A DNA stretch of 32,000 nucleotides from Candidatus Woesearchaeota archaeon (GTDB lineage Archaea > Nanobdellota > Nanobdellia > Woesearchaeales > SM23-78). The notes beneath the pieces are model-generated. The model searched no databases. It was given only the letters and a program-made list of their open reading frames with translations, and was not told the DNA's origin. The stretch is from positions 1-32,000 of the forward strand of contig JAHWIP010000076.1 in assembly GCA_019322375.1 (NCBI GenBank). Direction: 5' to 3'. Both the position numbers and the translations under genes were made by a program. Shown here piece after piece: positions 12,009-32,000 of the stretch; positions within the stretch are counted from its first letter, which is position 1; the number at the start of each line of letters is the position of its first letter.

Positions 12009-12707
12009 TCAGCTCCTAACAAGCATTGATTCCAGCTTGTCTTCAATAGCAGGTATATTAAGGTAGCCTTGGTCTTCACACATAACCCTCATTTCCCCAT
12101 ATAATTCATGGAAGGGCTTTTGGAATTTCTGCCAGAACCAGTTGGCTATTGCAAAATTTACATTCTTCTTAGAATTAAACTCATTGTTCTTCATAGAAAC
12201 ATGCCACCTGTCAAACTGGGAAACATATCCCCCTACATCAAACAAGTTAATGTAATAAGTCCAGGACAGGGGTGTGTTAGCATCACCCGGAATAAAATAA
12301 TAGTGCTGGTCAAGGTATTTACTTCTGCTGTCAGCAACACTCACAACATTTCCTATATTGCCATTTCCTAATAGATTATGCAGTCTTTCTTTATCACGCC
12401 CAATAGAGTGCTTGTCTTGAGATGAGAAGAAAATATTAGCAAACATCACTACTCTTGACAAATCAGCGTATACTAAGCCGTGATTAACCCCTCTTTGTAT
12501 AAAAGAATTATTCTTAATCTTTTTTAATTCAAACATAAGATCCCAGATTTCTTTAGAATCTGCATTAAAGACTGATTCAACATAACCCATATCTTGTATG
12601 CCCCTGGCAAAGAATTCATGAATAACATCTTTTTTCCTAACCTCAAACGGATACTTTTCTAATAATAAGTATTCAAAGAGCACAGGAATATCTATTGCAT
12701 CAATCAT
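12009..12707 (-). CDS. Hypothetical protein, no family recognised
   Basis: It is a 232-codon ORF with non-repetitive, ordinary-complexity sequence (…NHGLVYADLSRV…GRDKERLHNLLGNGNIGN…FDRWHVSMKNNEF…). I could not assign any motif. Confidence 0.5.
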   Translation of the reverse strand: MIDAIDIPVLFEYLLLEKYPFEVRKKDVIHEFFARGIQDMGYVESVFNADSKEIWDLMFELKKIKNNSFIQRGVNHGLVYADLSRVVMFANIFFSSQDKHSIGRDKERLHNLLGNGNIGNVVSVADSRSKYLDQHYYFIPGDANTPLSWTYYINLFDVGGYVSQFDRWHVSMKNNEFNSKKNVNFAIANWFWQKFQKPFHELYGEMRVMCEDQGYLNIPAIEDKLESMLVRS

Positions 12708-12832: not shown

Positions 12833-14533
12833 ATGCCTAAATCAGATTTTTTCAAGGAAATAATAGAGCACATCAAGCAGAACAAGCCCAACAAAGCAAG
12901 GCTTTCCAAGCAAAAAGTCAGGCTTTGCTCTAAGCACAAGCTTAAACGCATACCCACAGATATAGAGATTTTATTGCATGCAAAAAAACAAGACTTGTTT
13001 TTTCTAAGGAAATACTTGCAAACCAAGCCAACAAGAACTATTAGCGGGGTTGCTGTTGTGGCTGTTATGACCTATCCTTTCTCTTGCCCTCACGGCAGGT
13101 GTGTGCAGTGCCCTGGTGGTCCTGATAGTTTTTTTGGCACTGTTCCGCAGAGTTATACTGGCAAAGAACCTGCTACCATGAGAGCTATTAGGAACAGATA
13201 TGATTCTTATTTACAAATATTTAATCGTCTTGAGCAGTATGTTGTGCTTGGACAAAGCCCTGAAAAAGTTGAGCTTATCATTATGGGAGGGACTTTTCCT
13301 AGTTTTCCAAAGAAATATCAGGAAGAATTCATCTATTATGCTTTCAAGGCAATGAACGATTTCTCAAGATTATTCTATAAGAATGGCAATTTCAATATCA
13401 TTAAGTTCAAGCAGTTTTTTGAACTGCCAGGAAAAGTTGGTGATAAGAACAGGGTTAAGAATATCCATGAAAAACTGCTTGCAATGAAAAACAAGGATAA
13501 GAAAACAAAAAAAGATAAGAAAAACCTTGAGCAAGAGCAAAGGCTAAATGAGAAATCAAATATAAGATGTGTTGGCTTAACCATTGAAACCAGGCCTGAT
13601 TATGCAAAGCAAAAACATGCTAATGAAATGCTAAGAATGGGGTGCACCCGTGTAGAGCTCGGAGTTCAGAGTGTTTTTGATGACGCACTCAAAAGAATTA
13701 ATAGAGGACATGATGTTGCAGAGTCCATATGCGCAACCCAAATCTTAAAAGACCTTGGGTTTAAGATTAATTATCATATGATGCTGGGATTGCCTGGAAT
13801 TAATTTCCTGCAGGAGATTGAAGGATTAAAAAAGCTTTTTGATAATCCTGATTTCAGGCCTGACATGCTAAAGCTATACCCATGCATGGTTTTAAAAGGA
13901 ACCCGATTGCATGAGGACTGGAAAAAAGAAAGGTATAAACCTTTAACGACTCAGCAGGCAGCAAAACTGATTATTGAGTTCAAAAAGCACATACCAGAAT
14001 ACATCAGGATTATGAGAGTGCAAAGAGATATCCCTACAAAAATGACAGAAGCAGGTGTTGACAAGACCAATCTAAGACAGTACATGCATGAAAAAATGAA
14101 AAAGCACGGTGTTAAGTGCAGGTGCATTCGGTGCAGGGAAATAAGGGATAAGGAAATCAAGGGTAAAGTTGAGTTAAAAATTATTAATTATCAGGCTTCT
14201 AAAGGCAAAGAATATTTTATTAGCCTGGAGAACAAGGACCATATATTAGGTTTTTGCAGGCTAAGGTTTCCTTCCCAAAGCTTAAGAAAAGAAATGCCTA
14301 AAAACTCTGCAATTATTAGGGAACTGCATGTGTATGGAACAGCAGCAGCAATTAAAGGAAAAGGAAAAGTGCAGCACAAAGGCTTTGGAAAAAGATTATT
14401 AAGAACAGCAGAAAGCATTGCAAAAAAGAATAAAAAGAAAAAAATGATTATCATCTCCGGAGTTGGAGTAAGGGATTATTACAGAAACCAAGGATATAAA
14501 AAGCAAGGGCCTTATATGGTTAAGAATATATAA
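12833..14533 (+). CDS. elp3: Elp3-type radical-SAM/GNAT tRNA uridine(34) modification enzyme
   Basis: The N-terminal basic region is followed by TRTISGVAVVAVMTYPFSCPHGRCVQCPGG (radical-SAM cluster), IMGGTFPS, GLTIETRPDY, RVELGVQS and KLYPCMVLKGT. The C-terminal GNAT part is ELHVYG...HKGFGKRLL..AE. A Lys-rich insertion reads KNKDKKTKKDKKNLEQEQRLNEKS. Confidence 0.9.
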   Translation: MPKSDFFKEIIEHIKQNKPNKARLSKQKVRLCSKHKLKRIPTDIEILLHAKKQDLFFLRKYLQTKPTRTISGVAVVAVMTYPFSCPHGRCVQCPGGPDSFFGTVPQSYTGKEPATMRAIRNRYDSYLQIFNRLEQYVVLGQSPEKVELIIMGGTFPSFPKKYQEEFIYYAFKAMNDFSRLFYKNGNFNIIKFKQFFELPGKVGDKNRVKNIHEKLLAMKNKDKKTKKDKKNLEQEQRLNEKSNIRCVGLTIETRPDYAKQKHANEMLRMGCTRVELGVQSVFDDALKRINRGHDVAESICATQILKDLGFKINYHMMLGLPGINFLQEIEGLKKLFDNPDFRPDMLKLYPCMVLKGTRLHEDWKKERYKPLTTQQAAKLIIEFKKHIPEYIRIMRVQRDIPTKMTEAGVDKTNLRQYMHEKMKKHGVKCRCIRCREIRDKEIKGKVELKIINYQASKGKEYFISLENKDHILGFCRLRFPSQSLRKEMPKNSAIIRELHVYGTAAAIKGKGKVQHKGFGKRLLRTAESIAKKNKKKKMIIISGVGVRDYYRNQGYKKQGPYMVKNI

Positions 14534-14534
14534 G

Positions 14535-15485
14535 ATGGAAGAAAAGTTTGTTGTAAAAGAAAAATTTGAAAAAAGATACAGAGAATTACTAAGGGATAGA
14601 TATGATGAGTTTATCAATTACTCCAAGAAATACATAAGAAAAAGCATTCGTGTGAACACCTTAAAGATTTCTATTAATGAATTAAAAAAAAGACTGGGAA
14701 AAAACTGGGAGTTAAAACAGGTTCCCTGGTGCAGGCAAGGTTTTTGGATAGAGCATAAAGCAAAGGATGATGAAAAAAGATATGACATAGGTAATGTTTT
14801 AGAGCACCAGCTAGGCTATATATATGTGCAGGAAGCAGCAAGCATGATACCTCCTGTAGTGCTGGAGCCAAGACCAGGGGAAACAGTTCTGGATATGTGC
14901 TCTGCTCCTGGCAGCAAAGCAAGCCAGATAGCAGCCATGATGCAGAACAAAGGCTTATTAATAGCTAATGATGTGCAGACAGGCAGGTTAAAGCCTCTTG
15001 GAATCAACCTTCAAAGAGTAGGGGTGAGCAATGCCTTAATCACACAGATGCCAGGGCATAGATTTAAAAAAACAAGCCTAAGATTTGACAAAGTGCTGGT
15101 GGATGCTCCTTGCACTGGAACAGGAACAATAAGGCGCTCATACAAAACCTTAACCATGTGGAGCCCTAACATGATAAGAAAACTGGCAAGCCAGCAAAAA
15201 CAATTAATAGCCAGTGGATTTGAAGTGCTAAAACCAGAAGGAAGGCTTGTGTACTCAACCTGCACAATGGAGCCAGAAGAGAATGAAGAAGTGGTGAGCT
15301 GGCTGCTAAATAAATATCCTGATGCAAAGATTGAGAAAATAAAGCTAGATATCAACCGCAGTCCTGCAATTGCTGGGTTTGGAAAAGAAAAATACAATTC
15401 CCAAGTCAAAGAATGCCTAAGAATATGGCCCCAGGATAATGATACTGAGGGGTTTTTTGTAGTTAATATAAGAAAAAAAAGTTGA
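14535..15485 (+). CDS. NOL1/NOP2/Sun-family RNA (cytosine-C5)-methyltransferase (archaeal Trm4/NSUN-like)
   Basis: Motifs are VLDMCSAPGSKASQIA (SAM site), VLVDAPCTGTGTIRR (motif IV Cys) and LVYSTCTMEPEENE (motif VI Cys). The gene starts 1 nt after the elp3 stop. Confidence 0.85.
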   Translation: MEEKFVVKEKFEKRYRELLRDRYDEFINYSKKYIRKSIRVNTLKISINELKKRLGKNWELKQVPWCRQGFWIEHKAKDDEKRYDIGNVLEHQLGYIYVQEAASMIPPVVLEPRPGETVLDMCSAPGSKASQIAAMMQNKGLLIANDVQTGRLKPLGINLQRVGVSNALITQMPGHRFKKTSLRFDKVLVDAPCTGTGTIRRSYKTLTMWSPNMIRKLASQQKQLIASGFEVLKPEGRLVYSTCTMEPEENEEVVSWLLNKYPDAKIEKIKLDINRSPAIAGFGKEKYNSQVKECLRIWPQDNDTEGFFVVNIRKKS

Positions 15486-22654: not shown

Positions 22655-24157
22655 TTATTTCTTCTTCTTACCACTCGGTACTTTCTCCATTTCAAAGCCT
22701 GCTTTTTGCAGCACAGGAAGGATTTTCTCTTCTGGAAAAACCTGGGAAACACTTGCCAGTAATGCAAGATTCTTTCTTAATCCTATGTTTGTTCCTTCAG
22801 GTGTTTCGCTTGTGCATAATCTTCCCATGTGCGTGCTGTGCAGGCTTCTGGCTTCAAAGTTTTCTTGTGAAGATGATAAAGGACTAACAACTCTCTGCAG
22901 AGGAGATAATGTCTGCAAGAAGTTAAGCCTCTCAATCCTTTGGCTAACCCCTTTTCTCCCGCCAACCCAGTTGCCAGTTGCCATGCTTGAATAAATTCTC
23001 TGGGTTAAGAGTTTCTCCCTAATGATTACTTTAATACTTGGGAACTTGCCTCTCTTTACAATTCTCTGAAAATTATAAAGCAAGTCACCGATTAAGACTT
23101 TGAGATTAACCCTGAACAAATCTGCAAGAAGGTCACCGCTCATCTTTAAGCGTTTATTCCTATAATGGTCTTTGTCATCTGATTTCTCCTTTCTTATGGT
23201 GAGTATCATTTTCTTAAGCATCTTGCAAAGATTATAAGCCTTCCAAGTCCTGTCATCACGAGTAATGCCAATATGAGGCAACAAGTATTTATCAAGGATT
23301 TCCTGCATTCTCTGAATCCTTATCTCCCTTGCCTGGGTTATGCCTATCTTCTTAGCAATATAATCAATTGCATCCTCAGAGTTCTTCATATCAACGAACT
23401 CATACAAGTTGATAAGCACCTCTGCATCATCTTCCAAATCAATAAAGCGCATGATTTCCTCGTCTTTTATAAGGCCAAGAGCCTTGATAACCGCAATAAT
23501 AGGTATTCTCTTCACCCTTGTGAAGGTAAGATAGAACAACCCGTCTTTTAGTTTCTCGAACTGGTGAGGTATCTTGTAAGAACCTTTTTCTGAGAATAGT
23601 TTGCCAACATAAGGGCTAATACCTGTTGTTTGCTTCTCAATCATGAATGTATTAGAAGCAAGGTCTTCTATGTTAACAATAGCTTTCTCAGTTCCATTGA
23701 TAATAAAGTATCCTCCTGTATCATCCGGGTCCTCGTTCTGCTTGATAAGCTCCTCCCTGCTTAAACCATGAAGATGGCAGTACTTTGATTTGAGCATAAC
23801 AGGAATATTAGCAACCTGCGTTGTAAAACTTTCACGCTGCACACCATTAATATGAGCGCTTACCTCAAGGAACATAGGAGCAGAATAGCTAAGCTTTCTT
23901 AATCTGGCCTCAACAGGATAAATGCTCCTCTTAGAACCATCAGCCTCTGTAATTTCAGGCTTAGTAACCCACACATTATCCAAGTGTATCTTAAACTCAT
24001 CAACATTCGGAGGAATAATTGTGGGCTCAATCTCCTTGTTCTCATTAATAATTACTTGTAACTCATTATTAATAAAATTGTTAAAAGATTCAATATTAGC
24101 CTTGATAACACTGTTCTCTTCAAAATACTTTTTTAGCAATGCATAAGACTTTTTCAT
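22655..24157 (-). CDS. rpoB2: DNA-directed RNA polymerase subunit B'' (N-terminal half of Rpo2)
   Basis: ESFNNFIN, YPVEARLRKLSYSAPMFLEV, TGGYFIINGTEKAIV and the C-terminal HSTHMGRLCTSETPEGTNIGLRKNLAL are present. The protein is 500 aa, and the split-B arrangement has B'' upstream of B'. Confidence 0.95.
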   Translation of the reverse strand: MKKSYALLKKYFEENSVIKANIESFNNFINNELQVIINENKEIEPTIIPPNVDEFKIHLDNVWVTKPEITEADGSKRSIYPVEARLRKLSYSAPMFLEVSAHINGVQRESFTTQVANIPVMLKSKYCHLHGLSREELIKQNEDPDDTGGYFIINGTEKAIVNIEDLASNTFMIEKQTTGISPYVGKLFSEKGSYKIPHQFEKLKDGLFYLTFTRVKRIPIIAVIKALGLIKDEEIMRFIDLEDDAEVLINLYEFVDMKNSEDAIDYIAKKIGITQAREIRIQRMQEILDKYLLPHIGITRDDRTWKAYNLCKMLKKMILTIRKEKSDDKDHYRNKRLKMSGDLLADLFRVNLKVLIGDLLYNFQRIVKRGKFPSIKVIIREKLLTQRIYSSMATGNWVGGRKGVSQRIERLNFLQTLSPLQRVVSPLSSSQENFEARSLHSTHMGRLCTSETPEGTNIGLRKNLALLASVSQVFPEEKILPVLQKAGFEMEKVPSGKKKK

Positions 24158-24168
24158 TTTAGCTTTAT

Positions 24169-24408
24169 CTAATCCTTAACAACCCCCCGATAATATATTA
24201 TCTCGCCAGCAGTCCTGCTCTTACGCTTAATCATAACAATATCCCCTTCCTTAACACTGAGATGAGCTATTGCTGGATCAGAAACATTAATTTTAGGAAT
24301 CTCCCTGATAGAGACCTTATAATCTTTTAGCAAAGCCTTTGCTTCTTTATCAGAGAGCTTGATATGCTCAGGAATAAGGTCGTGTTTGAGTTGAGATTTT
24401 CGTGTCAT
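24169..24408 (-). CDS. rpoH: DNA-directed RNA polymerase subunit H (Rpo5)
   Basis: HDLIPEHIKLSDKEAKALLKDYKVSIREIPKINVSDPAIAHLSVKEGDIVMIKRKSRTAGEIIYYRGVV is the classic RpoH sequence. I set the start at the internal ATG (MTRKS) because the ORF-track extension to 24459 runs into the tRNA-Lys gene. Confidence 0.9.
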   Translation of the reverse strand: MTRKSQLKHDLIPEHIKLSDKEAKALLKDYKVSIREIPKINVSDPAIAHLSVKEGDIVMIKRKSRTAGEIIYYRGVVKD

Positions 24409-24428
24409 TTTAATCTGAAATGTATACA

Positions 24429-24583
24429 TGGGCCGGACGAGACAGTCAGAAAAACTCACATTTTTCCGGGTGATAAACGCAGTTTCTCATTTGAACTCGC
24501 GACCACACGATGACTTCCTGATTTAAAAGTCGTGTGCTCTAGTTCCCAAGCCACAAAGGCTTACCGGACTGAGCTACCGGCCC
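24429..24583 (-). tRNA. tRNA-Lys(UUU) with three intron-like insertions (D-loop, anticodon loop 37/38, T-loop), 155 nt
   Basis: The minus strand reads GGGCCGG-TA-GCTC-[31 nt where 8-11 are expected]-GAGC-A-CACGA-CTTTTA[AATCAGGAAGTC]A-TCGTG-TGGTC-GCGAG-TTCAAAT-[47 nt]-CTCGT-CCGGCCC-A. All four stems pair. For the 12-nt anticodon intron, loop nt CTTT can pair with intron GAAG, leaving 3-nt bulges at both junctions. CCA is not encoded. Confidence 0.8.
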
Positions 24584-24586
24584 ATA

Positions 24587-24735
24587 CGCCCTGGCCGGGA
24601 TTCGAACCCGGGTCGAAGCCTATCCACGACTTTAATCATTGATTGTGAATGATTATTAGTTCTCGACAGGGCTTCATGATAGTTACTGCAACAAAACAAG
24701 GTTTGTTTTGCTGAACCAGGCTACACTACCAGGGC
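24587..24735 (-). tRNA. tRNA-Asp(GUC) with two introns (D-loop ~33 nt, anticodon 37/38 ~42 nt), 149 nt
   Basis: The minus strand reads GCCCTGG-TA-GTGT-[43 nt D region containing hairpin CAAAACAA-ACC-TTGTTTTG]-TCAT-G-AAGCC-CTGTCG[42 nt containing AATCATT-CACAATC-AATGATT]A-GGCTT-CGAC-CCGGG-TTCGAAT-CCCGG-CCAGGGC-G. Only 3 nt separate it from tRNA-Lys. Confidence 0.8.
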
Positions 24736-24933: not shown

Positions 24934-25380
24934 TTATAAAGGTTGCTGTTTTTTAATAAACTTAACTATGCCGCCTACTGCACCAATCAAGAATACTATT
25001 GGGCAAATAGGGATAGCAATAATAAAGAATGTTACATGAAGAACTTCCATCAAAATTCTTAATACAGTGATGTTGGCGGCAATCATACCTAAAGCATAAA
25101 AGAAGTTGTGCAGAAAAACAGAGACAAGAAAGCCAACAGCAGAAATCGCTGTCAGAAACAAAAATGTTTTTAGCCTTCCCTTAACCTTTGATTTCCAACT
25201 CAAAAACAGCAGTGCAGCACCAAAAATAAAAAAAAGAAATGCTAACACAGCAGCAAAAGGAAAAAGATTTCGTTTCATAACATCAGAAACAGGAACAAGG
25301 AAATAAATAACTAACAAAATAAAGATAGCAATTAAAACAAAGAAGAATATTTTTGATAAATAAAGGTGTTTGTCTTTCAT
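24934..25380 (-). CDS. Small integral membrane protein (about 4 TM helices), hypothetical
   Basis: The 148-aa protein has four long hydrophobic segments (IFFFVLIAIFILLVIYFLV, FPFAAVLAFLFFIFGAALLFL, FLFLTAISAVGFLVSVFL, VTFFIIAIPICPIVFLIGAVGGIV). Confidence 0.6.
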   Translation of the reverse strand: MKDKHLYLSKIFFFVLIAIFILLVIYFLVPVSDVMKRNLFPFAAVLAFLFFIFGAALLFLSWKSKVKGRLKTFLFLTAISAVGFLVSVFLHNFFYALGMIAANITVLRILMEVLHVTFFIIAIPICPIVFLIGAVGGIVKFIKKQQPL

Positions 25381-25470
25381 AAAAAGAAAAATGATATATC
25401 TAATATTAAAATGTTGTTGTGGGTGGAAGTGCTAGCGCCTGGATGGATGGTTTTGGTGGGAATCCGAAGT

Positions 25471-26178
25471 CTATTTCTTTTGGGCTAATAGGATCATATT
25501 GACGTGTGCAGGCTTGTGAGTAAAATGATATAATCCTGTTTTTACTTCTTTATCTAACAAAGAAATGAATGCTATATCAAAACCTTGTTTTTTAAATGCC
25601 TCAGTAAACTCCCGATGATGCTTATGATGATTATAAGTACCAAAAATGTGAAAAAAGTGTCCTTGGTTTGTGAAGAAAAAAATCCCTTTTGGTTTCAATA
25701 ACCTGTTAATTTCACTTACATACTCATCAATAGTTGGTCGAATTGGTTGAAATTCTTCTGGAGTTGTCCTTACAATTTGATCAGTAATCATGTGATTGTG
25801 TATTTCTGTAAAATAACCATCCTCAAAAGGATAAGGCAAATCCTTTGCATCCCAAGGAAAGAGAATAAATTCAATGTTATCACTCTTTGTTCCTTGTTTT
25901 CTGAGTTTTTCTTTAGCATAATCTCTATACCAAAAAGGTTTGGTTGTATCGGGAATATTTTTTGGGACGAATGTGAGATTTTCCCAGTATGAACTTAAAT
26001 CAAAATAATAAGTCATTCCTCTATAAGTAATCTTGACCTGCCTCTCTTTTGAGTATTCTTCTAGGTTATCATAAACCGGGGCATGATCTGGTCCTATCTC
26101 TAATGCAACAATATGGTCAAGTTTATTTCTTTCTTGCGTAAAGTAATCATTCAAAGATGTTTTAAGTAAAAATACCAT
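25471..26178 (-). CDS. Divergent class-I SAM-methyltransferase-like protein (tentative)
   Basis: IVALEIGPD sits at the motif-I position but lacks the usual Gly-rich loop. WDAKDLPYPFEDGYFTEIHNHM resembles the LPF.D.sFD motif. EINRLLKPKGIFFFTN resembles the RvLKPgG motif. A ~60-aa insertion follows motif I. Confidence 0.35.
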   Translation of the reverse strand: MVFLLKTSLNDYFTQERNKLDHIVALEIGPDHAPVYDNLEEYSKERQVKITYRGMTYYFDLSSYWENLTFVPKNIPDTTKPFWYRDYAKEKLRKQGTKSDNIEFILFPWDAKDLPYPFEDGYFTEIHNHMITDQIVRTTPEEFQPIRPTIDEYVSEINRLLKPKGIFFFTNQGHFFHIFGTYNHHKHHREFTEAFKKQGFDIAFISLLDKEVKTGLYHFTHKPAHVNMILLAQKK

Positions 26179-26254: not shown

Positions 26255-26407
26255 TCCCCGCGCCCGGACATTCAGAAAAACCGTAATCCCAGCTTCTCGT
26301 TTGAACCAGGAACCTCTCGGGAACAGCTGATCGTGTATCATTTCCAGCCAGCCGGCTTCTCAACACGATATCTACAGCCGAGCGCTCTGCCGTTGAGCTA
26401 CGCGGGG
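26255..26407 (-). tRNA. tRNA-Tyr(GUA) with two introns (anticodon region ~50 nt, T-loop 31 nt), 153 nt
   Basis: The minus strand reads CCCCGCG-TA-GCTC-AACGGCA-GAGC-G-CTCGG-CTGTAG(A)[~50 nt containing ATCGTGT...ACACGAT]-CCGAG-AGGTT-CCTGG-TTCAAAC-[GAGAAGCTGGGATTACGGTTTTTCTGAATGT]-CCGGG-CGCGGGG-A. The C1:G72 pair is the archaeal/eukaryal tRNA-Tyr identity pair. The ORF-track entry 26184..26489 overlaps this gene and is spurious. Confidence 0.8.
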
Positions 26408-26908: not shown

Positions 26909-28387
26909 TTATTCTTTGTGCACCAGGTTTACATTGTTAGAGTATGTTACTCTTTCTTTTCCTTTTCTGGCGTCAAATTTGGCTTTGGCGCTTGGAAGCC
27001 TTATGCCTCCTACTAGCTGGAGTTTTGACTTTACCCTGTAGGTTATTATTCTTTCCTCATAAGGCTCCAGCACGTCCAGCTCCCATTTGGCTACTGTGCC
27101 TCTTCTGCTCTTGCCAATGTTGACAGGCTCCATTGAGCCCAGCCTTGTTTTCTTCTCTATCTCTGCTATCCTGGGCACAGTATCCACCACTCTTAAGTTG
27201 GTTATGGGCCTTCTTGACCTGTTCTTCAGGTAAAGACTTATCTTTATTTCACTCACTCCTTCCTTTGTTCTCCCAAGAGGCTCTGCGCTTTTAATTATAA
27301 CTATAGGGCTTCTCAGAGTATAGTAGAGCACTACCCCTACTATTATCAAGATGATTATGAGCACTAATAACCTGTAATTAGTAATGATTTCTATGTCCAG
27401 GTGTTCCTCTGAGCTGAGCTCCTGTCTTATAACATAATAAGTTTTGCCGTCTGTTCCTCCCTCTTTTACAGGGCTTGGTGAGAAGCTGGTGAATAATCTC
27501 TTGAAAAAGTTAATTCTAAAACTCTTCTCAGCCACTCCTTTCTCATTCCCTTTATTATAAATAGTTATGCTTTCCCGGGTTCTGAACAAGAAGCTCTTCT
27601 TGGTGCTTGTTTCCTGCATATCAAGATAGCCTTGTACTTCATACTGGGTGGAAGACTCTGCTATTTTCTTATCCTCAAAGAACAAGGTAAGGGTCAGGGT
27701 TTTTGTGCCTGCCTCTACAAAAGGGTCTACTTCAAATAATATCTCATTAAACTTCTCTTCCAGGGGCAACAGGTGGGTGGTGTATTCTTTATATAATATT
27801 TCCCCGCTAATCACTACTTTTAATCCGTCAAGGTCTCTCAGGTTCCTGTTCCTAAGGTTAAGCCTCACAGCCACTTTTTGTCTTGGGTCAACCACCTGGT
27901 CAATATAAATAGTAGGAGTTACTGTGGGCACATACACTCCTGGTTTTTGGTCAGGAGAAACAACATAAACAGCGAATTTTTCTTTTTCCTCAAAGTGAAA
28001 ACCTGTTTTTTCTGATTTTATTTTTATTGGAATGATATATGTTAGTCCTTCTCTTAAAAGTGGTTTTGGTCTTAGCTCTACTACGAATTCTGCATCTTGC
28101 CCTGCTGTCACCACACCTGATCCTGGTTCTGCATTAACAATCCAGTTAACATCCCTTGTGCTGATTGTAAAGAAATCATCAAAGTCTGCTGTGTTCCTAA
28201 TAATAAGCTCAAACCTTGCTATTTCCTGCTTGGTAATAGTATTGTTAATAGGAGTAACAAAATATGTGAATGCCAGTGCCTGGGAAGCTGTTATTAGAAT
28301 AAGAACTAATGCAATGGTTAATGTGAATAAGACTCTTAATTCGAGCTTTTTGTTCATGGGACCTCGCCTCCTGCCCTTTATAACCAT
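26909..28387 (-). CDS. Membrane protein with CARDB/NEW3/DUF11-like beta-sandwich domains on both sides of a single TM helix
   Basis: The probable true start is the second ATG (28357), which is preceded by AGGAGG: MNKKLELRVLFTLTIALVLILITASQALA (signal peptide). NEW3/CARDB-like text is FELIIRNTADFDDFFTISTRDVNWIVNAEPGSGVVTAGQDAEFVVELRP. The TM helix is LLVLIIILIIVGVVLYYTL. The C-terminal DUF11-like text is LRVVDTVPRIAEIE...GTVAKWELDVLEPYEERIITYRVKS. Confidence 0.65.
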   Translation of the reverse strand: MVIKGRRRGPMNKKLELRVLFTLTIALVLILITASQALAFTYFVTPINNTITKQEIARFELIIRNTADFDDFFTISTRDVNWIVNAEPGSGVVTAGQDAEFVVELRPKPLLREGLTYIIPIKIKSEKTGFHFEEKEKFAVYVVSPDQKPGVYVPTVTPTIYIDQVVDPRQKVAVRLNLRNRNLRDLDGLKVVISGEILYKEYTTHLLPLEEKFNEILFEVDPFVEAGTKTLTLTLFFEDKKIAESSTQYEVQGYLDMQETSTKKSFLFRTRESITIYNKGNEKGVAEKSFRINFFKRLFTSFSPSPVKEGGTDGKTYYVIRQELSSEEHLDIEIITNYRLLVLIIILIIVGVVLYYTLRSPIVIIKSAEPLGRTKEGVSEIKISLYLKNRSRRPITNLRVVDTVPRIAEIEKKTRLGSMEPVNIGKSRRGTVAKWELDVLEPYEERIITYRVKSKLQLVGGIRLPSAKAKFDARKGKERVTYSNNVNLVHKE

Positions 28388-28408
28388 TTAAATTTATGAA
28401 TAACCCCC

Positions 28409-28416
28409 TTTATATA
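28409..28416 (-). promoter_or_regulatory. Candidate TATA box upstream of the 26909-28387 gene
   Basis: The minus strand reads TATATAAA about 22-29 nt upstream of the first ATG (28387). Confidence 0.3.
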
Positions 28417-28445
28417 CCTTTCTATTTTAGAGAAGTAAAAACTGG

Positions 28446-29233
28446 CTATTCCTGGTTAATGACATGTTCAATGCCAGCAAGTTCAGGTTTTTCCATTGGC
28501 TTGTCTAGAACTAATTGGTGTTCCTTATCTGGCTTTGGAATTTCTTTTGCTTGATTGGAATTGTTCGGACTTATAACATACATCATCACAGTGGCTGCTA
28601 AGCCTGCAACAGGGTATGCTATGGCTAGGGTTTTTTTGAATCTCTTTGATTTTTGCTTTATTCTTTTTGGCAGAGTTCCTGTGTCCTCTACTCCTGTTAA
28701 TTCTTTATAGATATCTATGGTCAATAGCACAGGCACTCCTATTGCTGTTCCTATGGTTGTCATCATGCCTGCATTCAAAAGGATTTTATCTATTTCTTTT
28801 ACTCCTGCAAGAGCATACAGACCTATTCTGATTGGAAACACTATCCCTGCAATAAAACCTATGTCAAATAATACTTTTTTCCTAGTGGCGAGTCTTTAGT
28901 CACTCCGAACTTTTGCCTTACTCTTTCTCTGCCTTCCATTCCAAGACCTATAGATGCATAGGTAAATGCTGTTGTGAGCATTCTTGATTTTATTGATTCA
29001 AAATCTGTTAATCTGCCTGCTGTTGTTTCTATCATTGCATAGAGTGGGTTGAATATGGTTGCTGATGCTATGGTTGAAACAGTGTCTTTTTTAAATCTAG
29101 AACTATTTTTTATGTTTTGATATGTTCCTTTTGGATTGCAGATTATTTCATCTAATTGCTTGCATGCTAGAGAATAATCTTGATATATTCTGTTCGTGAT
29201 AGTTTCATATCTTTGCTTTAATCCCATAGTCAC
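28446..29233 (-). pseudogene. AlaE-like (L-alanine exporter family-like) membrane protein split by a frameshift at an A6 run
   Basis: ORFs 28859..29233 and 28446..28841 are adjacent on the same strand. The downstream frame is open back to 28897, overlapping the upstream ORF. A -1 shift within GGAAAAAAG (plus-strand T-run 28875-28880) joins ...FGVTKDSPLGKK to VLFDIGFIAGIVFPIRIGLYALAG... The two halves resemble, from memory, the two halves of E. coli AlaE (R...D......iE...g.......SR / D.....f..P.y..l...G). Confidence 0.4.
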
Positions 29234-29250
29234 TATTAGTTAGTAGCATC

Positions 29251-29260
29251 TATTTTTAAA
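29251..29260 (-). promoter_or_regulatory. Candidate TATA box for the AlaE-like gene
   Basis: The minus strand reads TTTAAAAATA about 24-33 nt upstream of the ATG at 29227 (M3 of the ORF-track model). Confidence 0.3.
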
Positions 29261-29281
29261 TGTTGTTAAAAAGAAAAGATA

Positions 29282-29400
29282 TGGGGCTGCGAGGATTTGA
29301 ACCCCGGTTTCCAGCTGTCCGTTTCATTGATAAGCATGAGTTGGCATGCCATTCTCACGAACCCCGAGCTGGGGTGATGGCCAAACTACACTACAGCCCC
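29282..29400 (-). tRNA. Intron-containing tRNA, most parsimoniously tRNA-Pro (GGG by canonical 37/38 splicing). The isotype is uncertain.
   Basis: The minus strand reads GGGGCTG-TA-GTGT-AGTTTGGCCA-TCAC-C-CCAGC-TCGGGG[45 nt]A-GCTGG-AAAC-CGGGG-TTCAAAT-CCTCG-CAGCCCC-A. The stems are good and the T-loop is canonical. G1-G3:C70-C72 plus A73 and G35/G36 fit archaeal tRNA-Pro identity rules. However, the spliced loop would be UCGGGGA, with C rather than U at position 33. Confidence 0.55.
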
Positions 29401-29429
29401 GTTGAATAATAAAAAGAAATAGTTAAGGA

Positions 29430-29439
29430 TTTATATAAG
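29430..29439 (-). promoter_or_regulatory. Candidate TATA box for the tRNA at 29282-29400
   Basis: The minus strand reads TTATATAAAT at -30 to -39 from the tRNA 5' end. This is slightly far and would imply a short leader. Confidence 0.3.
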
Positions 29440-30684
29440 TTATTTTTTCTTTTTCTTAGGTTTCTTCTTTTTTGCTTTCTTTTTCTTCTTCTTTGTTATC
29501 TTTTTCTTTTTCTTAGGTTTCTTCTTTGTTATTTTCTTTACTTTCTTTTTCTTTGCTGCTTTCTTCTTTGCCTTTCTCTTGAGCTTCTTTTTTAATTTTT
29601 TCTTTGCAGCTTTTTTCTTAGCTGTTTTTTTCTTTGCAGTCTTTTTCTTAGTCTTTTTTACTTTTTTCTTTACCTTGGTCATGGCAGCCTTCTTAAGCTT
29701 GGTTATGTATTCTTTTTCTTCTTCTTTTCTGCTCTTGACTTTTATGATTATGGCAATTATCAGTATAACTATCAATGCTATTAGCAGGAATTGTACAATG
29801 ATTGCTGCCCTGCTTTTTTCAAGTTGAGAAGCAGGTTGCTGCTGCTCTGGCTCAGCCTCTTCTGGCTCTTCTAGAACAGGGGTTATAACCACATTTACCT
29901 TCCTAATAACAGGCGCTCTTGCTGCTTCTCCTAATAAATTGCTTTCCTGCTTGGTGCTCACTGTGAAGTATGCTTTTTTGTAAGAAATATAGTTAAGGGT
30001 TAACTCAATATCTTCCTGCCCGTCATTGTTAAAATCAAGGTTAATTGAGGCTTTCTCATGCAGGTTCATTCTCTTGTCACCAGGGGTTATCATCAATCCC
30101 ACCATGCCTATTCCTTTGCTATAATCCTGTATAATCCTCATAATATTAATCTCATAGGTGTTCTCTCCTTTTCTTGCTCTGATAACATCATTTGGCATCA
30201 CTTTGTCTATGTCTAGTTCAAGGTCATCTTTGATTTCAAATTCATAGATATAGCCTGCTCTGTTTGGGAACTTGGTTATTGTCAGCTCTGATTCCTCTTC
30301 CTCCCCTATTATTAGGCGTCTGGTTGGAGAAGTAATCTTTATATTATCTGTGTCTATGCATTCTATGCTCCAGATATAGGTGCCTGGCACCAGGTCTGTT
30401 CTTATCCTTGTATCATACGGCGATAGTAATCCAGTAGCAGTCTTTGCTATCTGGTCATTCAGGATTAACGAGCACTCTTTCATATCAAGCTCAGAAGGAT
30501 ACTTGAACATGAAATATATGCTTGTTGCTTTTGTCTGGGTGTCATGCGTTGGGGCTACAAGGGTTATGCTGGCAGCAGGGCTGATAACAAAGCCTGTGAT
30601 TGAAGCATTGTTAGCAATAACTAGGTATATTAAGGCAAGGGCAAACAATCCAAAGACTATTTCTAGTTTTGTAACCCGCTTCAT
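29440..30684 (-). CDS. Type-I membrane protein: two Ig-like ectodomains, an acidic linker, one TM helix, and a 100-aa polylysine cytoplasmic tail
   Basis: The signal/anchor is LEIVFGLFALALIYLVIA. The ectodomain is paralogous to the upstream gene. The acidic linker is EEPEEAEPEQQQ and the TM helix is AAIIVQFLLIALIVILIIAIII. In the last 85 residues, 57 are Lys (KKTAKKKTAKKKAAKKKLKKK...KKKKPKKKKK). The start overlaps the upstream gene's stop by 4 nt. Confidence 0.8.
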   Translation of the reverse strand: MKRVTKLEIVFGLFALALIYLVIANNASITGFVISPAASITLVAPTHDTQTKATSIYFMFKYPSELDMKECSLILNDQIAKTATGLLSPYDTRIRTDLVPGTYIWSIECIDTDNIKITSPTRRLIIGEEEESELTITKFPNRAGYIYEFEIKDDLELDIDKVMPNDVIRARKGENTYEINIMRIIQDYSKGIGMVGLMITPGDKRMNLHEKASINLDFNNDGQEDIELTLNYISYKKAYFTVSTKQESNLLGEAARAPVIRKVNVVITPVLEEPEEAEPEQQQPASQLEKSRAAIIVQFLLIALIVILIIAIIIKVKSRKEEEKEYITKLKKAAMTKVKKKVKKTKKKTAKKKTAKKKAAKKKLKKKLKRKAKKKAAKKKKVKKITKKKPKKKKKITKKKKKKAKKKKPKKKKK

Positions 30685-32000
30685 TTTTTCATCTTCCTCC
30701 CTGTGCTCTTAATAATATCAAAGCTCTCATCAAAAACAGGCTGGGCTTCTTCAGGCTCAGGACTTTCTTCTGGCTTAACCATTTTTGGTTTAAGCTCCTT
30801 TTTTTTAACCTTTGGTTCTCTGGCTTTTTTCTCTTTGGTCTTTTTTTGTTTAACCGGTTGTTTAACCACTTTTTTCTCTGGTTTTCTCCTAGAGGGAGAC
30901 TCAAAAATCTCTGATTTTTGTTTTCTCCCAGAAGGAGACTCAAAAATCTCTGATTTTTGTTTTCTCCCAGAAGGAGACTCAAAAATCTCTGATTTTTGTT
31001 TTCTCCCAGAAGGAGACTCAAAAATCTCTGATTTTTGTTGTTTCTCTTCTTTGGTAATTTGTAATTCAGTAACTTTTTTCTTTTTTCTTTTTGCAACCAA
31101 CAGGATAATCACAAGAATTATGATTAATATAATTGCTATTATGAGTATTATTAACCAGGTTTTGCTCTTTTTTTCTGGCTTTGGAGAGGGTGTTACGACT
31201 GTTTCTTCTTCTACCTCAGGCTCTTCTACTTCTTCTTCAGGCTCTTGCTCTGCGAGCAAGTCCTCTCCCTCTTCAACTTCCTCTATAACTTCTGGTTCTT
31301 CTTCTGTTTCCGGCTCTTCTTCAGGCACTGGTTCTGCTTCTTCTTCCTCTTCTTCTATTGCTTCTTCAACAACTGTATCTGGATAAGGAGTCACAACAAA
31401 GTAAGCATCAACACTTCTGTCAACCTCTGTAAGAGAGAGCTCAACATCCACGGTCTCATCATCATCAAAGTCAAAGCTGAGGGTGCCTGGTACCAGCATC
31501 CTGTGCTTAACACCTGTACTTCTGTCCCTTACCTCTACAAAGCTGGTGTTAATAGCAACCCCCATCTTTATAATATCAAGGTAATAAGTTTTGCCGGAAA
31601 GTTTTATCTGGATATCCTCCCCTCCTTTAAGTGCAGGAAGCTCTACAGGGCTCTGACCAGGCTCTATTGTGAACACATAACCTCTTAAACCAGAGGAATA
31701 ATAAAATGTTTCATAGCTTTCTTTTATTTCTTCACCAGTATTAACACTAAGGGTTCTTGTCTCAGATAGTATCTCATTAAAATCTATGTCATAGCACTTC
31801 ATAAACCAGTCGTGCTTACCTGCTTCTAGCTCCACTGTTATTTTATTATCATTTATGCGGAAAAGCGTGTTCCTGACTTTTTTTACCTCATCATCTACTA
31901 TTAATGAGCAGTTAAGAATGTCCACGTACTGGTCAAAGCTGTAGATAAAGTCCTGGGTATAAGTTATGATTACAGAGCCGTCAGCAGGCAATTTAAGTTC
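30681..32000 (-). CDS. Paralogous type-I membrane protein (5' end outside the window): Ig-like ectodomains, a long polyacidic stalk, a TM helix, and a basic tail with a 13-aa x4 tandem repeat
   Basis: The frame is open to the window end. The domains align by eye with the 29440-30684 protein (C.L..D......L..G...W...C.D; ...F.F.DD...D.EL.L.......AYF.V). The acidic stalk EEAIEEEEEEAEPVPEEEPETEEEPEVIEEVEEGEDLLAEQEPEEEVEEPEVEEE is at ~31203-31370. The TM helix is TWLIILIIAIILIIILVIILLVA. The basic tail is KRKKKK...(KSEIFESPSGRKQ)x4...KKTKEKKAREPKVKKKELKPK. Confidence 0.8.
   Translation of the reverse strand, partial: ELKLPADGSVIITYTQDFIYSFDQYVDILNCSLIVDDEVKKVRNTLFRINDNKITVELEAGKHDWFMKCYDIDFNEILSETRTLSVNTGEEIKESYETFYYSSGLRGYVFTIEPGQSPVELPALKGGEDIQIKLSGKTYYLDIIKMGVAINTSFVEVRDRSTGVKHRMLVPGTLSFDFDDDETVDVELSLTEVDRSVDAYFVVTPYPDTVVEEAIEEEEEEAEPVPEEEPETEEEPEVIEEVEEGEDLLAEQEPEEEVEEPEVEEETVVTPSPKPEKKSKTWLIILIIAIILIIILVIILLVAKRKKKKVTELQITKEEKQQKSEIFESPSGRKQKSEIFESPSGRKQKSEIFESPSGRKQKSEIFESPSRRKPEKKVVKQPVKQKKTKEKKAREPKVKKKELKPKMVKPEESPEPEEAQPVFDESFDIIKSTGRKMKK
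30881..31042 (-). repeat. Perfect 39-nt in-frame tandem repeat (about 3.8 copies plus a degenerate flank)
   Basis: The plus-strand unit is GGAGACTCAAAAATCTCTGATTTTTGTTTTCTCCCAGAA. Identical copies sit at 30895-30933, 30934-30972 and 30973-31011. A fourth copy starts at 31012 and diverges after ~29 nt. A partial diverged copy lies at 30881-30894. The unit encodes KSEIFESPSGRKQ. Confidence 0.95.

What the first reader, a model, noticed from the sequence alone, without database searches (positions are those of the whole stretch)
24429..24735. All four tRNA genes are interrupted, with eight intron-like insertions including D-loop and T-loop positions
Reading the minus strand, tRNA-Lys(UUU) carries three insertions (D-loop, anticodon 37/38, T-loop). 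tRNA-Asp(GUC) carries two (D-loop, 37/38). tRNA-Tyr(GUA) at 26255-26407 carries two (anticodon, T-loop). The tRNA at 29282-29400 carries one. In every case the acceptor, D, anticodon and T stems pair normally once the insertions are removed. Multiple non-canonical introns per tRNA are established mainly for Thermoproteales and a few ultrasmall archaea, and they require a splicing endonuclease with relaxed BHB specificity. This density in a genome with euryarchaeal/DPANN-type split RpoB is unusual. It would also make standard tRNA finders miss or mis-type these genes.
Basis: partly seen in the sequence, partly recalled or inferred. Interest (0 to 1): 0.75.

Follow-up and report, generated by a model that had tools for sequence, protein, structure and literature searches.

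The report
Multi-intron tRNA genes in a Woesearchaeote
Four tRNA genes of a tiny DPANN archaeon (Woesearchaeota) are broken up by eight short archaeal-type introns, which is real and makes them invisible to simple tRNA finders, but this turns out to be the normal state of tRNA genes in this lineage and is a known kind of feature.

Summary
On the minus strand lie tRNA-Asp(GUC) 24735-24587 (2 introns), tRNA-Lys(UUU) 24583-24429 (3), tRNA-Tyr(GUA) 26407-26255 (2) and a fourth gene, 29400-29282 (1), which I identify as tRNA-Pro(GGG). Removing the eight segments (12-50 nt) gives four clean cloverleaves. All eight junctions fit bulge-helix-bulge (BHB) geometry at least in relaxed form; only the Tyr T-loop junction forms a textbook BHB in its minimum-energy fold.

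The window is from a Woesearchaeota MAG. The Asp-Lys pair sits upstream of rpoH in most of 80 related genomes. There the introns are present or absent in a mosaic at the same three sites (D-loop, 37/38, 59/60). Intronless orthologues match the predicted spliced products. Spliced Lys genes show strong covariation, so these are functional genes, not pseudogenes.

The kind is known: Thermoproteales, ARMAN, and flagged for DPANN including Woesearchaeota by Kaneta et al. 2018. "Unusual density" holds only relative to Euryarchaeota, because within Woesearchaeota it is the rule.

EndA proteins named Woesearchaeota or Nanoarchaeota are single-chain and alpha4-like. That leaves open how relaxed junctions are cut. 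No RNA evidence for splicing was available.

The parts
24587..24735 (-). tRNA-Asp(GUC) gene, 149 nt precursor, 75 nt after splicing; CCA not encoded
   Evidence: Spliced alignment. ARAGORN calls Asp(gtc) on the spliced sequence. Orthologues found in 53 related loci, 16 of them intronless.
24683..24714 (-). Asp intron 1, 32 nt, D-loop between U20 and C20a
   Evidence: The minimum-energy fold shows two 3-nt bulges (GUU, UAA) flanking a 3-bp CUG/CAG helix, with an 11-bp inner helix. Strict geometry gives H 3/4, h 1, h' 10. L038 and L072 lack this intron and read GGC|CTATCAT and GGT|CTATCAT respectively.
24622..24663 (-). Asp intron 2, 42 nt, canonical 37/38
   Evidence: Strict geometry gives H 4/4 (one G-C and three G.U pairs), h 7, h' 2. 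The minimum-energy fold prefers a slipped pairing. A homologous 42-nt intron is present in L002 and L003 and absent in L007, L010 and L021.
24429..24583 (-). tRNA-Lys(UUU) gene, 155 nt precursor, 74 nt after splicing; starts 3 nt after tRNA-Asp and ends 20 nt before the rpoH ATG
   Evidence: The spliced sequence is 74/74 identical to the exons of L002, which has no D-loop or anticodon intron.
24542..24563 (-). Lys intron 1, 22 nt, D-loop 19/20 (sequence-equivalent to 20/21 or 21/22 because of a UA repeat)
   Evidence: Relaxed HBh' form: H 3/4 (UCC/GGG), inner helix AAGCC/GGCUU, D-stem as outer helix after an A14.A21 mismatch. The minimum-energy fold is slipped. The same site is occupied in 25 of 74 orthologues, with a conserved 3' end GGGCAA.
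24512..24523 (-). Lys intron 2, 12 nt, canonical 37/38
   Evidence: H 4/4 (CUUU/GAAG), h 7, no inner helix (hBH plus loop). A 12-nt intron is also present in L003 and L023. The site is occupied in about 40 of 74 orthologues.
24443..24489 (-). Lys intron 3, 47 nt, T-loop 59/60
   Evidence: H 3/4 (UCA/UGA), h 5 (the T-stem), h' 8. The minimum-energy fold has a 7x7 internal loop between the T-stem and a long inner helix. A homologous intron is present in L003. The site is occupied in 21 of 74 orthologues.
26255..26407 (-). tRNA-Tyr(GUA) gene, 153 nt precursor, 72 nt after splicing
   Evidence: Twelve orthologues were found elsewhere in related loci.
26322..26371 (-). Tyr intron 1, 50 nt, canonical 37/38
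   Evidence: H 3/4, h 5, and an inner helix AUCGUGU/ACACGAU after a 1-nt bulge. An intron of about 49-58 nt with the same architecture is present in 12 of the 14 orthologous introns listed.
26269..26299 (-). Tyr intron 2, 31 nt, T-loop 59/60
   Evidence: Textbook hBHBh' in the minimum-energy fold: 5-bp T-stem, 4-bp UUCA/UGAA, bulges AAC and UGU, 9-bp inner helix. Its ends match the Lys T-loop intron at 21 of 26 positions.
29282..29400 (-). tRNA-Pro(GGG) gene with C33, 119 nt precursor, 74 nt after splicing
   Evidence: Rfam tRNA 44.6 bits. ARAGORN calls Pro(ggg) on the spliced sequence. The intronless metagenome homologue L134 has the identical anticodon arm CCAGC-UCGGGGA-GCUGG, and L130 has CAAGC-UCGGGGA-GCUUG. 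The sequence is identical in an independent Logan assembly.
29317..29361 (-). Pro intron, 45 nt, canonical 37/38
   Evidence: H 3/4, h 5. The inner helix UUCGU/AUGAA is displaced by one register. A homologous intron is present in L188.
24169..24408 (-). rpoH, first gene of the rpoH-rpoB''-rpoB'-rpoA'-rpoA'' cluster immediately downstream of tRNA-Lys (context, conserved synteny)
   Evidence: Pfam RNA_pol_Rpb5_C. Split RpoB and RpoA. The Asp-Lys pair lies upstream of the RpoB'' match in most of L001-L080.

Best explanation
These are four functional tRNA genes of a Woesearchaeota (DPANN) archaeon: Asp-GUC, Lys-UUU, Tyr-GUA and Pro-GGG. They are interrupted by eight protein-spliced archaeal introns.

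Shown here:
- The exons are collinear and assemble into canonical cloverleaves.
- Each intron sits at one of three structurally equivalent places. These are six nucleotides into the D-, anticodon- or T-loop.
- At each place the arm's own stem is the outer helix. Four loop nucleotides pair with the 3' end of the intron to form the central 4-bp helix. The two splice sites lie in the flanking 3-nt bulges.

Inferred from established archaeal tRNA biology:
- Asp and Lys are 3 nt apart and are presumably co-transcribed. The other two genes are transcribed separately.
- RNase P and RNase Z trim the ends.
- The splicing endonuclease EndA cuts both bulges of every BHB or relaxed-BHB junction, whatever its position.
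- RtcB joins the exons and probably circularises the introns.
- CCA is added post-transcriptionally, since none is encoded.

The introns are gained, lost and occasionally copied between genes on short evolutionary timescales. That produces a mosaic of intron content among related species.
For: 1. Spliced sequences are called as normal Asp, Lys, Tyr and Pro tRNAs.
2. All 8 junctions have H>=3/4 plus a flanking helix in strict BHB geometry. In the minimum-energy folds, the Tyr T-loop junction is a perfect hBHBh', the Asp D-loop junction has both 3-nt bulges, and the Lys T-loop junction has the expected 7x7 loop.
3. Among 158 introns inferred in orthologous genes, 73% are at least relaxed, 32% near-canonical and 20% strict. 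Random junctions give 4.2%, 0.37% and 0.05%.
4. Orthologous Asp-Lys pairs upstream of rpoH show presence or absence of introns at the same sites. Lys: 13 intronless, 25 D-loop, about 40 at 37/38, 21 at 59/60. Asp: 16 of 53 intronless. L002 Lys exons are 74/74 identical to the predicted spliced window gene.
5. Fifty distinct intron-containing Lys genes were spliced in silico. They give 99.8% paired cells, 12 of 21 pairs with compensatory double changes, and 0 of 500 shuffles as good. Slid controls give 30-46% paired.
6. Intron ends are conserved only where BHB pairing demands it: GGGCAA| at the D-loop site and UGAAAG| at the T-loop site. The interiors are free.
7. Exon GC is 63% and intron GC is 41%.
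8. EndA homologues with an intact Tyr/His/Lys triad exist in MAGs named Woesearchaeota or Nanoarchaeota.
9. The kind is documented. Non-canonical positions 20/21, 56/57 and 59/60 and three-intron genes are described in PMC4090602. DPANN tRNA disruption is described in PMC5829648.
Against: - There is no RNA evidence of splicing.
- No EndA or RtcB gene lies in the window. The EndA proteins examined are not from this genome.
- In isolated minimum-energy folds, 5 of the 8 junctions adopt slipped alternatives rather than a BHB (Asp 37/38, Lys D-loop, Lys 37/38, Tyr 37/38, Pro). Several central helices depend on G.U pairs or contain a mismatch.
- The spliced alignments of orthologues were guided by stem complementarity, which leans the covariation counts slightly towards pairing.
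- The rest of the genome could not be searched for uninterrupted duplicate genes.
Confidence: 0.9

Rival explanations
1. The loci are decayed tRNA pseudogenes that have accumulated insertions. Functional uninterrupted copies lie elsewhere in the genome.
For: The rest of the genome could not be inspected. Standard finders reject three of the four genes. The Pro gene has an atypical C33.
Against: - Exons are almost invariant between species while introns diverge or are replaced. Lys exons are 74/74 identical to L002, whose only intron is an unrelated 86-nt T-loop intron.
- Spliced genes give 99.8% paired cells with compensatory changes.
- The same locus upstream of rpoH holds the Asp-Lys pair in most of 80 species.
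- The insertions sit only at BHB-compatible sites.
- C33 recurs in intronless Pro(GGG) genes.
Confidence: 0.03
2. The insertions are not removed. They persist as expansion segments in unusually large mature tRNAs.
For: No RNA data are available. Several junctions fold poorly into a BHB in isolation.
Against: - Insertions in the anticodon loop next to position 37, and inside the T-loop and D-loop, would destroy the anticodon loop and the D/T-loop tertiary contacts.
- Close relatives lack individual insertions while keeping identical exons.
- Intron ends are constrained exactly as BHB pairing predicts.
Confidence: 0.03
3. The insertions are assembly artefacts, or footprints of mobile elements such as MITEs or integrase targets in tRNA genes.
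For: tRNA genes are common integration targets, and MAG assemblies can be chimeric.
Against: - The Pro locus is identical over 1925 nt in an independent Logan assembly.
- The same sites are occupied in dozens of MAGs from unrelated studies.
- The inserts are 12-50 nt with no target duplications or terminal repeats, and they carry BHB pairing to the exons.
Confidence: 0.01
4. They are self-splicing group I or group II introns.
For: Group I introns occur in some archaeal rRNA and tRNA genes (PMC6125680, listed).
Against: Lengths of 12-50 nt are far below any catalytic core. There is no Rfam intron hit at E<=1. BHB geometry is present instead.
Confidence: 0.005

Closest known systems
Multi-intron, non-canonical-position tRNA genes of Thermoproteales (Sugahara 2007/2008; Fujishima 2010; reviewed in PMC4090602)
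   Same: - Up to three BHB/HBh'/hBH introns per gene.
- Positions in the D-arm, at 37/38, and at T-loop 56/57 and 59/60.
- Rapid gain and loss between related species.
- Similar introns in different tRNA genes, implying copying. Here the Lys and Tyr T-loop introns match at 21 of 26 end positions, the top of 392 cross-identity pairs.
   Different: - The host is a mesophilic-type DPANN lineage (Woesearchaeota), not Crenarchaeota.
- Insertion is concentrated at three equivalent loop sites rather than scattered, for example at 3/4 or 25/26.
- EndA in named relatives is a single alpha-type chain. No sequence is inserted relative to M. jannaschii EndA at the position of the Crenarchaea-specific loop.
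ARMAN-1/-2 (Micrarchaeota) disrupted tRNAs with epsilon2 EndA (PMC3239211, PMC3488258)
   Same: An ultrasmall DPANN archaeon. It has non-canonical introns, including relaxed-BHB T-loop introns.
   Different: ARMAN-2 uses a three-unit fused epsilon protomer with the ASL loop. The Woesearchaeota and Nanoarchaeota EndAs found here are 170-211 aa, collinear with alpha4 M. jannaschii EndA.
DPANN survey in Kaneta et al. 2018 (PMC5829648)
   Same: The survey includes a Woesearchaeote and a Pacearchaeote. It reports alpha4-type EndA in DPANN associated with markedly increased tRNA gene disruption, including multiple introns. It also reports incomplete tRNA sets that suggest undetected disrupted genes.
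   Different: That work is one genome per lineage, analysed with tRNAscan-SE. It has no locus-level comparison. The presence/absence mosaic at one orthologous locus across about 75 species, and the site rule shown here, are additional detail.
Cyanidioschyzon merolae ectopic and multiple tRNA introns (PMC3728597, PMC9602550)
   Same: [quoted passage not shown]
   Different: It is a eukaryotic nuclear genome with a heteromeric Sen complex. The genes are often permuted as well.

Membership tests
Archaeal BHB (EndA-dependent) tRNA introns | Removal of the segment restores a canonical tRNA cloverleaf with a 7-nt anticodon loop | tested here: met
   ARAGORN calls Asp, Lys, Tyr and Pro on the spliced sequences. 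Intronless orthologues equal the spliced products.
Archaeal BHB (EndA-dependent) tRNA introns | Two 3-nt bulges separated by a 4-bp helix at the exon-intron junctions (hBHBh'), or the relaxed hBH / HBh' forms | tested here: met
   All 8 junctions have H>=3/4 with at least one flanking helix. The strict motif appears in the minimum-energy fold for Tyr 59/60, and a near-BHB for the Asp D-loop and Lys 59/60. The other five are relaxed or slipped. Enrichment over random junctions was measured in 158 orthologous introns.
Archaeal BHB (EndA-dependent) tRNA introns | Cleavage by EndA and ligation by RtcB, with mature tRNA lacking the intron | not testable with these tools
   No RNA data are available. 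No EndA or RtcB gene lies in the window. EndA with an intact catalytic triad is present in MAGs named Woesearchaeota or Nanoarchaeota.
Archaeal BHB (EndA-dependent) tRNA introns | Exons under tRNA-type constraint, introns free apart from the BHB-forming ends | tested here: met
   Covariation in spliced Lys genes. Conserved GGGCAA| and UGAAAG| intron ends with variable interiors. Exon GC 63% against intron GC 41%.
Broad-specificity EndA systems ((alpha-beta)2 with CSL, or epsilon2 with ASL) that accompany multi-intron tRNAs | Two-subunit or three-unit EndA carrying a specificity loop with a conserved Lys near the catalytic site | tested here: inconclusive
   Eight DPANN-type EndAs, including P0096 (named Woesearchaeota), are single chains with PF02778 and PF01974. 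They have no internal insertion relative to M. jannaschii and M. maripaludis EndA. Some have Lys-rich N-terminal tails. A separate beta subunit, and the EndA of this particular genome, could not be checked.
Split or permuted tRNA genes | tRNA halves encoded at separate loci or in reversed order | tested here: not met
   All exons are collinear and contiguous within 119-155 nt.
Group I / group II introns | Catalytic RNA core of hundreds of nucleotides | tested here: not met
   Introns are 12-50 nt. There is no Rfam match at E<=1.
tRNA pseudogenes | Loss of stem pairing and of cross-species conservation | tested here: not met
   99.8% paired cells with compensatory changes. The syntenic locus is conserved in most of 80 species.

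The most novel reading that the evidence does not exclude
Woesearchaeota may be a second large radiation, beside Thermoproteales, of rampant tRNA-intron gain, loss and copying. It would be governed by a simple site rule: the intron sits after the sixth nucleotide of the D-, anticodon- or T-loop, so that each arm's stem doubles as the outer BHB helix. It would be served by an ordinary-looking single-chain alpha-type EndA.

If that enzyme alone cuts the relaxed D-loop (HBh') and 12-nt (hBH) junctions, one of two things follows. Either the accepted link between EndA architecture or specificity loops and substrate breadth needs revision, or an unrecognised cofactor is involved. Candidates suggested by this work are the Lys-rich EndA tail, and an L7Ae-type protein binding the conserved UGA...AUGA module seen in the Tyr and Pro introns.

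Such genes could also explain part of the 'missing tRNA' problem reported for complete Nanobdellota genomes.
Probability: 0.3. Interest if true: 0.55.

Novelty: new member of a known kind. Interest (0 to 1): 0.35.

Why it matters
**Annotation.** Simple tools (ARAGORN, Rfam tRNA) miss or mis-type three of four tRNA genes here. Recent surveys of Nanobdellota and DPANN genomes report incomplete tRNA sets and cannot decide between loss, split genes and detection failure (PMC5829648; bioRxiv 10.64898/2026.05.13.725050). Heavily interrupted genes are a concrete candidate explanation.

**Evolution.** The Asp-Lys locus upstream of rpoH offers a natural series of about 75 species with every combination of 0-3 introns at fixed sites. 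That is good material for dating intron gain and loss, and for testing intron copying between genes.

**Mechanism.** If the lineage has only an alpha4-like EndA, it provides a test of whether substrate breadth really requires the CSL/ASL-type loops.

None of this changes the basic picture of archaeal tRNA splicing.

Tried and rejected
1. **Standard finders.** ARAGORN default gave nothing. ARAGORN -i gave two wrong identities. Rfam in gathering and E<=1 modes found only the Pro gene.
2. **Alternative register for the fourth gene.** I considered anticodon CGG or Val-CAC with a shifted stem, as ARAGORN -i suggested. I rejected it because it needs a C27.A43 mismatch, no N26 and a 3-nt variable loop. 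In addition, the intronless homologues L130 and L134 show the loop UCGGGGA unambiguously.
3. **First-pass alignment errors.** The first spliced alignments placed spurious Lys 'introns' at query positions 40-43 in species whose anticodon stem differs from the window's. Rebuilding each query's 3' stem strands from its own 5' strands fixed this, and those positions collapsed onto 37/38 (with wrong stem coordinates, 45).
4. **Asp D-loop boundaries.** Introns in distant orthologues are poorly placed by this method (0 of 13 scored as BHB), so I do not rely on them.
5. **EndA in the window.** None was found (Pfam). A weak tblastn hit of M. jannaschii EndA near the end of L002 pointed to the 232-aa ORF 12009-12707. 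That ORF is not EndA.
6. **Source contig.** I tried to recover the source contig or strain variants by exact protein look-up. Only one 1965-nt Logan contig, around the Pro gene, was found. rpoH and the 598-aa ORF are not on record. One search used a wrong start coordinate.
7. **K-turn in the Tyr and Pro introns.** I tried to fit a clean kink-turn to the conserved UGA...AUGA module and could not by inspection.
8. **Fourth gene in related loci.** No orthologue is present in the 80 rpoB-anchored loci. I used the single metagenome scan instead.
Full report
**What is there**

Four tRNA genes lie on the minus strand of the window.
- tRNA-Asp(GUC), 24735-24587.
- tRNA-Lys(UUU), 24583-24429. It starts 3 nt after tRNA-Asp and ends 20 nt before the rpoH ATG at 24408.
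- tRNA-Tyr(GUA), 26407-26255.
- A fourth gene, 29400-29282.

These come from direct reading and a spliced-alignment dynamic programme I wrote.

The interruptions are as follows.
- Asp: 32 nt in the D-loop (U20/C20a) and 42 nt at 37/38.
- Lys: 22 nt in the D-loop (G19/U20), 12 nt at 37/38 and 47 nt in the T-loop (59/60).
- Tyr: 50 nt at 37/38 and 31 nt at 59/60.
- Fourth gene: 45 nt at 37/38.

After removal, ARAGORN calls normal Asp(GTC), Lys(TTT), Tyr(GTA) and Pro(GGG) cloverleaves. None of the genes encodes CCA.

A crude scan for acceptor-stem plus T-arm combinations recovers these four and nothing else credible.

The claim that standard finders fail is borne out.
- ARAGORN default finds none.
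- ARAGORN with anticodon-loop introns finds two and mis-types them as SeC and Val.
- The Rfam tRNA model sees only the single-intron gene, even at E<=1.

**Identity of the fourth gene**

Its anticodon loop was ambiguous, because every reading in the natural register gives C at position 33. I scanned metagenome contigs for Pro-like 5' halves. The scan returned intronless genes with the same arm:
- L134: CCAGC-UCGGGGA-GCUGG, identical to the spliced window gene.
- L130: CAAGC-UCGGGGA-GCUUG.

The gene is therefore tRNA-Pro(GGG) with a canonical 37/38 intron and a genuine C33. The alternative shifted register (anticodon CGG or CAC) needs a stem mismatch, no N26 and a 3-nt variable loop, so I rejected it. 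The locus is identical over 1925 nt in an independent Logan assembly of run SRR14699983.

**Are the insertions introns?**

I scored each junction in strict bulge-helix-bulge geometry. In this geometry:
- the central helix H is the four exon nucleotides ending two before the 5' splice site, paired with intron positions -6 to -3;
- both cuts fall after the second nucleotide of a 3-nt bulge.

This is consistent with the description in PMC4090602. All eight junctions have at least 3 of 4 H pairs and at least one flanking helix.

| Junction | H | h | h' | Note |
|---|---|---|---|---|
| Asp D-loop | 3/4 | 1 | 10 | |
| Asp 37/38 | 4/4 | 7 | 2 | three G.U pairs |
| Lys D-loop | 3/4 | 0 | 5 | D-stem follows one A.A mismatch |
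| Lys 37/38 | 4/4 | 7 | 0 | |
| Lys 59/60 | 3/4 | 5 | 8 | |
| Tyr 37/38 | 3/4 | 5 | 1 (+7) | 7 further bp follow a 1-nt bulge |
| Tyr 59/60 | 4/4 | 5 | 9 | |
| Pro 37/38 | 3/4 | 5 | see note | 5-bp inner helix one register off |

Random junctions of the same lengths in related DNA reach this level 4.2% of the time.

Minimum-energy folds of mini-substrates give a more sober picture.
- Tyr 59/60 folds into a textbook hBHBh'.
- The Asp D-loop junction shows both 3-nt bulges around a 3-bp helix.
- Lys 59/60 shows the expected 7x7 internal loop.
- The other five prefer slipped alternatives.

Most junctions are therefore relaxed rather than strict BHB motifs.

**Comparative evidence**

The N-terminal RpoB half (22655-24157) is 84-89% identical to proteins of MAGs labelled Woesearchaeota, Nanoarchaeota or Nanoarchaeia. 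Eighty related loci were fetched. The window carries the typical archaeal cluster rpoH-rpoB''-rpoB'-rpoA'-rpoA''-L30e-NusA-S12 with split RpoB.

After refining the spliced alignments, tRNA-Lys(UUU) is found in 74 of 80 loci and tRNA-Asp(GUC) in 53. Both almost always lie just upstream of rpoH.

Intron content is a mosaic.
- Lys: 13 genes without introns, 25 with a D-loop intron at the same site, about 40 with a 37/38 intron, 21 with a 59/60 intron and 6 with a 56/57 intron. Five genes carry three introns.
- Asp: 16 genes without introns. The remainder carry D-loop, 37/38 and/or T-loop introns.

The closest relatives differ from the window at individual sites.
- L002 Lys has only an unrelated 86-nt T-loop intron. 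Its exons are 74/74 identical to the predicted spliced window gene.
- L003 shares the 12-nt and 47-nt Lys introns but lacks the D-loop intron.
- L038 and L072 Asp lack the D-loop intron and read straight across the predicted junction.

Intron ends are conserved only where they must pair with the exon...GGGCAA| at the Lys D-loop site and ...UGAAAG| at the T-loop site. The interiors vary freely.

Across 158 inferred introns, 73% are at least relaxed, 32% near-canonical and 20% strict BHB. Random junctions give 4.2%, 0.37% and 0.05%.

Fifty distinct intron-containing Lys genes, spliced in silico, give 99.8% standard pairs. Twelve of 21 pairs show compensatory double changes. No shuffle of 500 does as well, and slid controls reach only 30-46%. 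One caveat: the refined alignments were guided by stem complementarity.

Exon GC is 63%, intron GC 41% and window GC 38.6%. Together these results exclude pseudogenes, retained expansion segments and assembly artefacts as serious rivals.

**A geometric regularity (inference from the above)**

The three recurrent sites are equivalent. In each arm, the arm's stem is the outer helix. The first four (T-loop, anticodon loop) or second to fifth (D-loop) loop nucleotides form the central helix with the intron's 3' end. The next two loop nucleotides end the 5' exon. One loop nucleotide starts the 3' exon.

**Intron copying**

The Lys and Tyr T-loop introns of the window share (U/C)GAGAA(A/G)CUG(C/G)G at the 5' end and GUUUUUCUGA(C/A)UG at the 3' end. 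They match at 21 of 26 end positions. That is the highest of 392 cross-identity pairs of T-loop introns (mean 9.9, sd 3.1), apart from the L003-Lys/window-Tyr pair at 22. This resembles the intron transposition described for Thermoproteales (Fujishima 2010, as summarised in PMC4090602).

**The enzyme**

No EndA or RtcB gene is in the window. I searched with M. jannaschii EndA recalled from memory. The query proved 91% identical to the M. fervens protein, which validates it. It found single-chain proteins of 170-211 aa carrying PF02778 and PF01974 and named Woesearchaeota (P0096, GCA_014728835.1) or Nanoarchaeota.

In alignment these proteins:
- are collinear with the alpha4-type methanococcal enzymes;
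- keep the Tyr/His/Lys triad;
- have no internal insertion relative to M. jannaschii;
- in several cases have a Lys-rich N-terminal tail.

This agrees with Kaneta et al. 2018, who reported alpha4-type EndA in DPANN associated with increased tRNA disruption. I could not see an extra loop relative to M. jannaschii. I could not exclude a separate beta subunit. I could not examine this genome's own enzyme.

**Novelty**

Multi-intron tRNA genes with BHB/HBh'/hBH junctions at 20/21, 56/57, 59/60 and other positions are established (PMC4090602).
- ARMAN has them together with an epsilon2 EndA (PMC3239211, PMC3488258).
- A Woesearchaeote and a Pacearchaeote were included in the 2018 survey that flagged multiple introns and incomplete tRNA sets in DPANN (PMC5829648).
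- A 2026 preprint on 208 complete Nanobdellota genomes reports missing tRNA isotypes it could not explain, and does not discuss multi-intron genes.

The finding is therefore a correct observation of a known kind of feature in a lineage where it is the rule. What goes beyond the literature I could search:
- the species-level mosaic at one syntenic locus;
- the site rule;
- the apparent intron copying;
- the alpha4-like EndA.

I found no paper describing these in the held library. That library lacks most subscription journals.

Noticed in passing
window 29362-29368 (-), anticodon loop of tRNA-Pro(GGG); also L130, L134, L088, L092, L120 and others: Position 33 is C instead of the near-universal U. 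In a metagenome sample of Pro-like genes, C33 occurs in 17 of 65 genes with anticodon GGG, including intronless ones. It occurs in only 2 of 44 with UGG and 0 of 11 with CGG. The sequence is identical in an independent assembly.
   Followed up: partly
window 26322-26371 (-) and orthologous introns in L011, L014, L018, L026, L034, L039, L053, L057, L063, L065, L072, L074, L080: The canonical tRNA-Tyr intron is kept at about 49-58 nt with a common architecture. It has two covarying helices around an internal loop with a 5' (U/G)GA and an invariant 3' AUGA, reminiscent of box D'/C' (K-turn). The Pro intron of the window (UGAGAAUG...AAUGAAAC) and its relatives L129, L182 and L188 carry a similar pair. 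I could not fit a clean K-turn.
   Followed up: partly
window 24408-24735 (-) and L001-L080: tRNA-Asp and tRNA-Lys are 3 nt apart. They abut the rpoH start (20-nt spacer) at the head of the RNA polymerase gene cluster. This arrangement is conserved in most of the 80 related genomes, which suggests possible co-transcription with rpoH.
   Followed up: partly
L006, L013, L025, L027 and others, and L061 (record titles): Many contigs carrying a Woesearchaeota-type rpoB'' and the Asp-Lys locus are titled 'uncultured Methanosarcinales archaeon' (binchicken MAGs), and one is titled 'Candidatus Aminicenantes bacterium'. These are probably mislabelled or contaminated records.
   Followed up: no
proteins P0095, P0096, P0099, P0064 (alignment A2): EndA proteins from Nanoarchaeota- or Woesearchaeota-named MAGs carry Lys-rich N-terminal extensions of about 20-45 residues. 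These are absent from methanococcal EndA.
   Followed up: no
window 2398-2958 (+): A 186-aa ORF matches the Pfam outer-membrane beta-barrel domain OMP_b-brl (E 1e-10, above the curated cut-off). That is odd for an archaeon without an outer membrane.
   Followed up: no
window 12833-15485 (+): Two RNA-modification genes sit side by side: an Elp3-type radical-SAM/GNAT protein and an RsmB/NSUN-type m5C methyltransferase.
   Followed up: no
window 12009-12707 (-), 24934-26178 (-), 26909-31991 (-): Several sizeable ORFs (232, 148, 235, 492, 131, 124, 414 and 436 aa) have no significant Pfam match. They include all neighbours of the Tyr and Pro genes. The 232-aa ORF has only a weak kinase-like PDB similarity.
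   Followed up: partly
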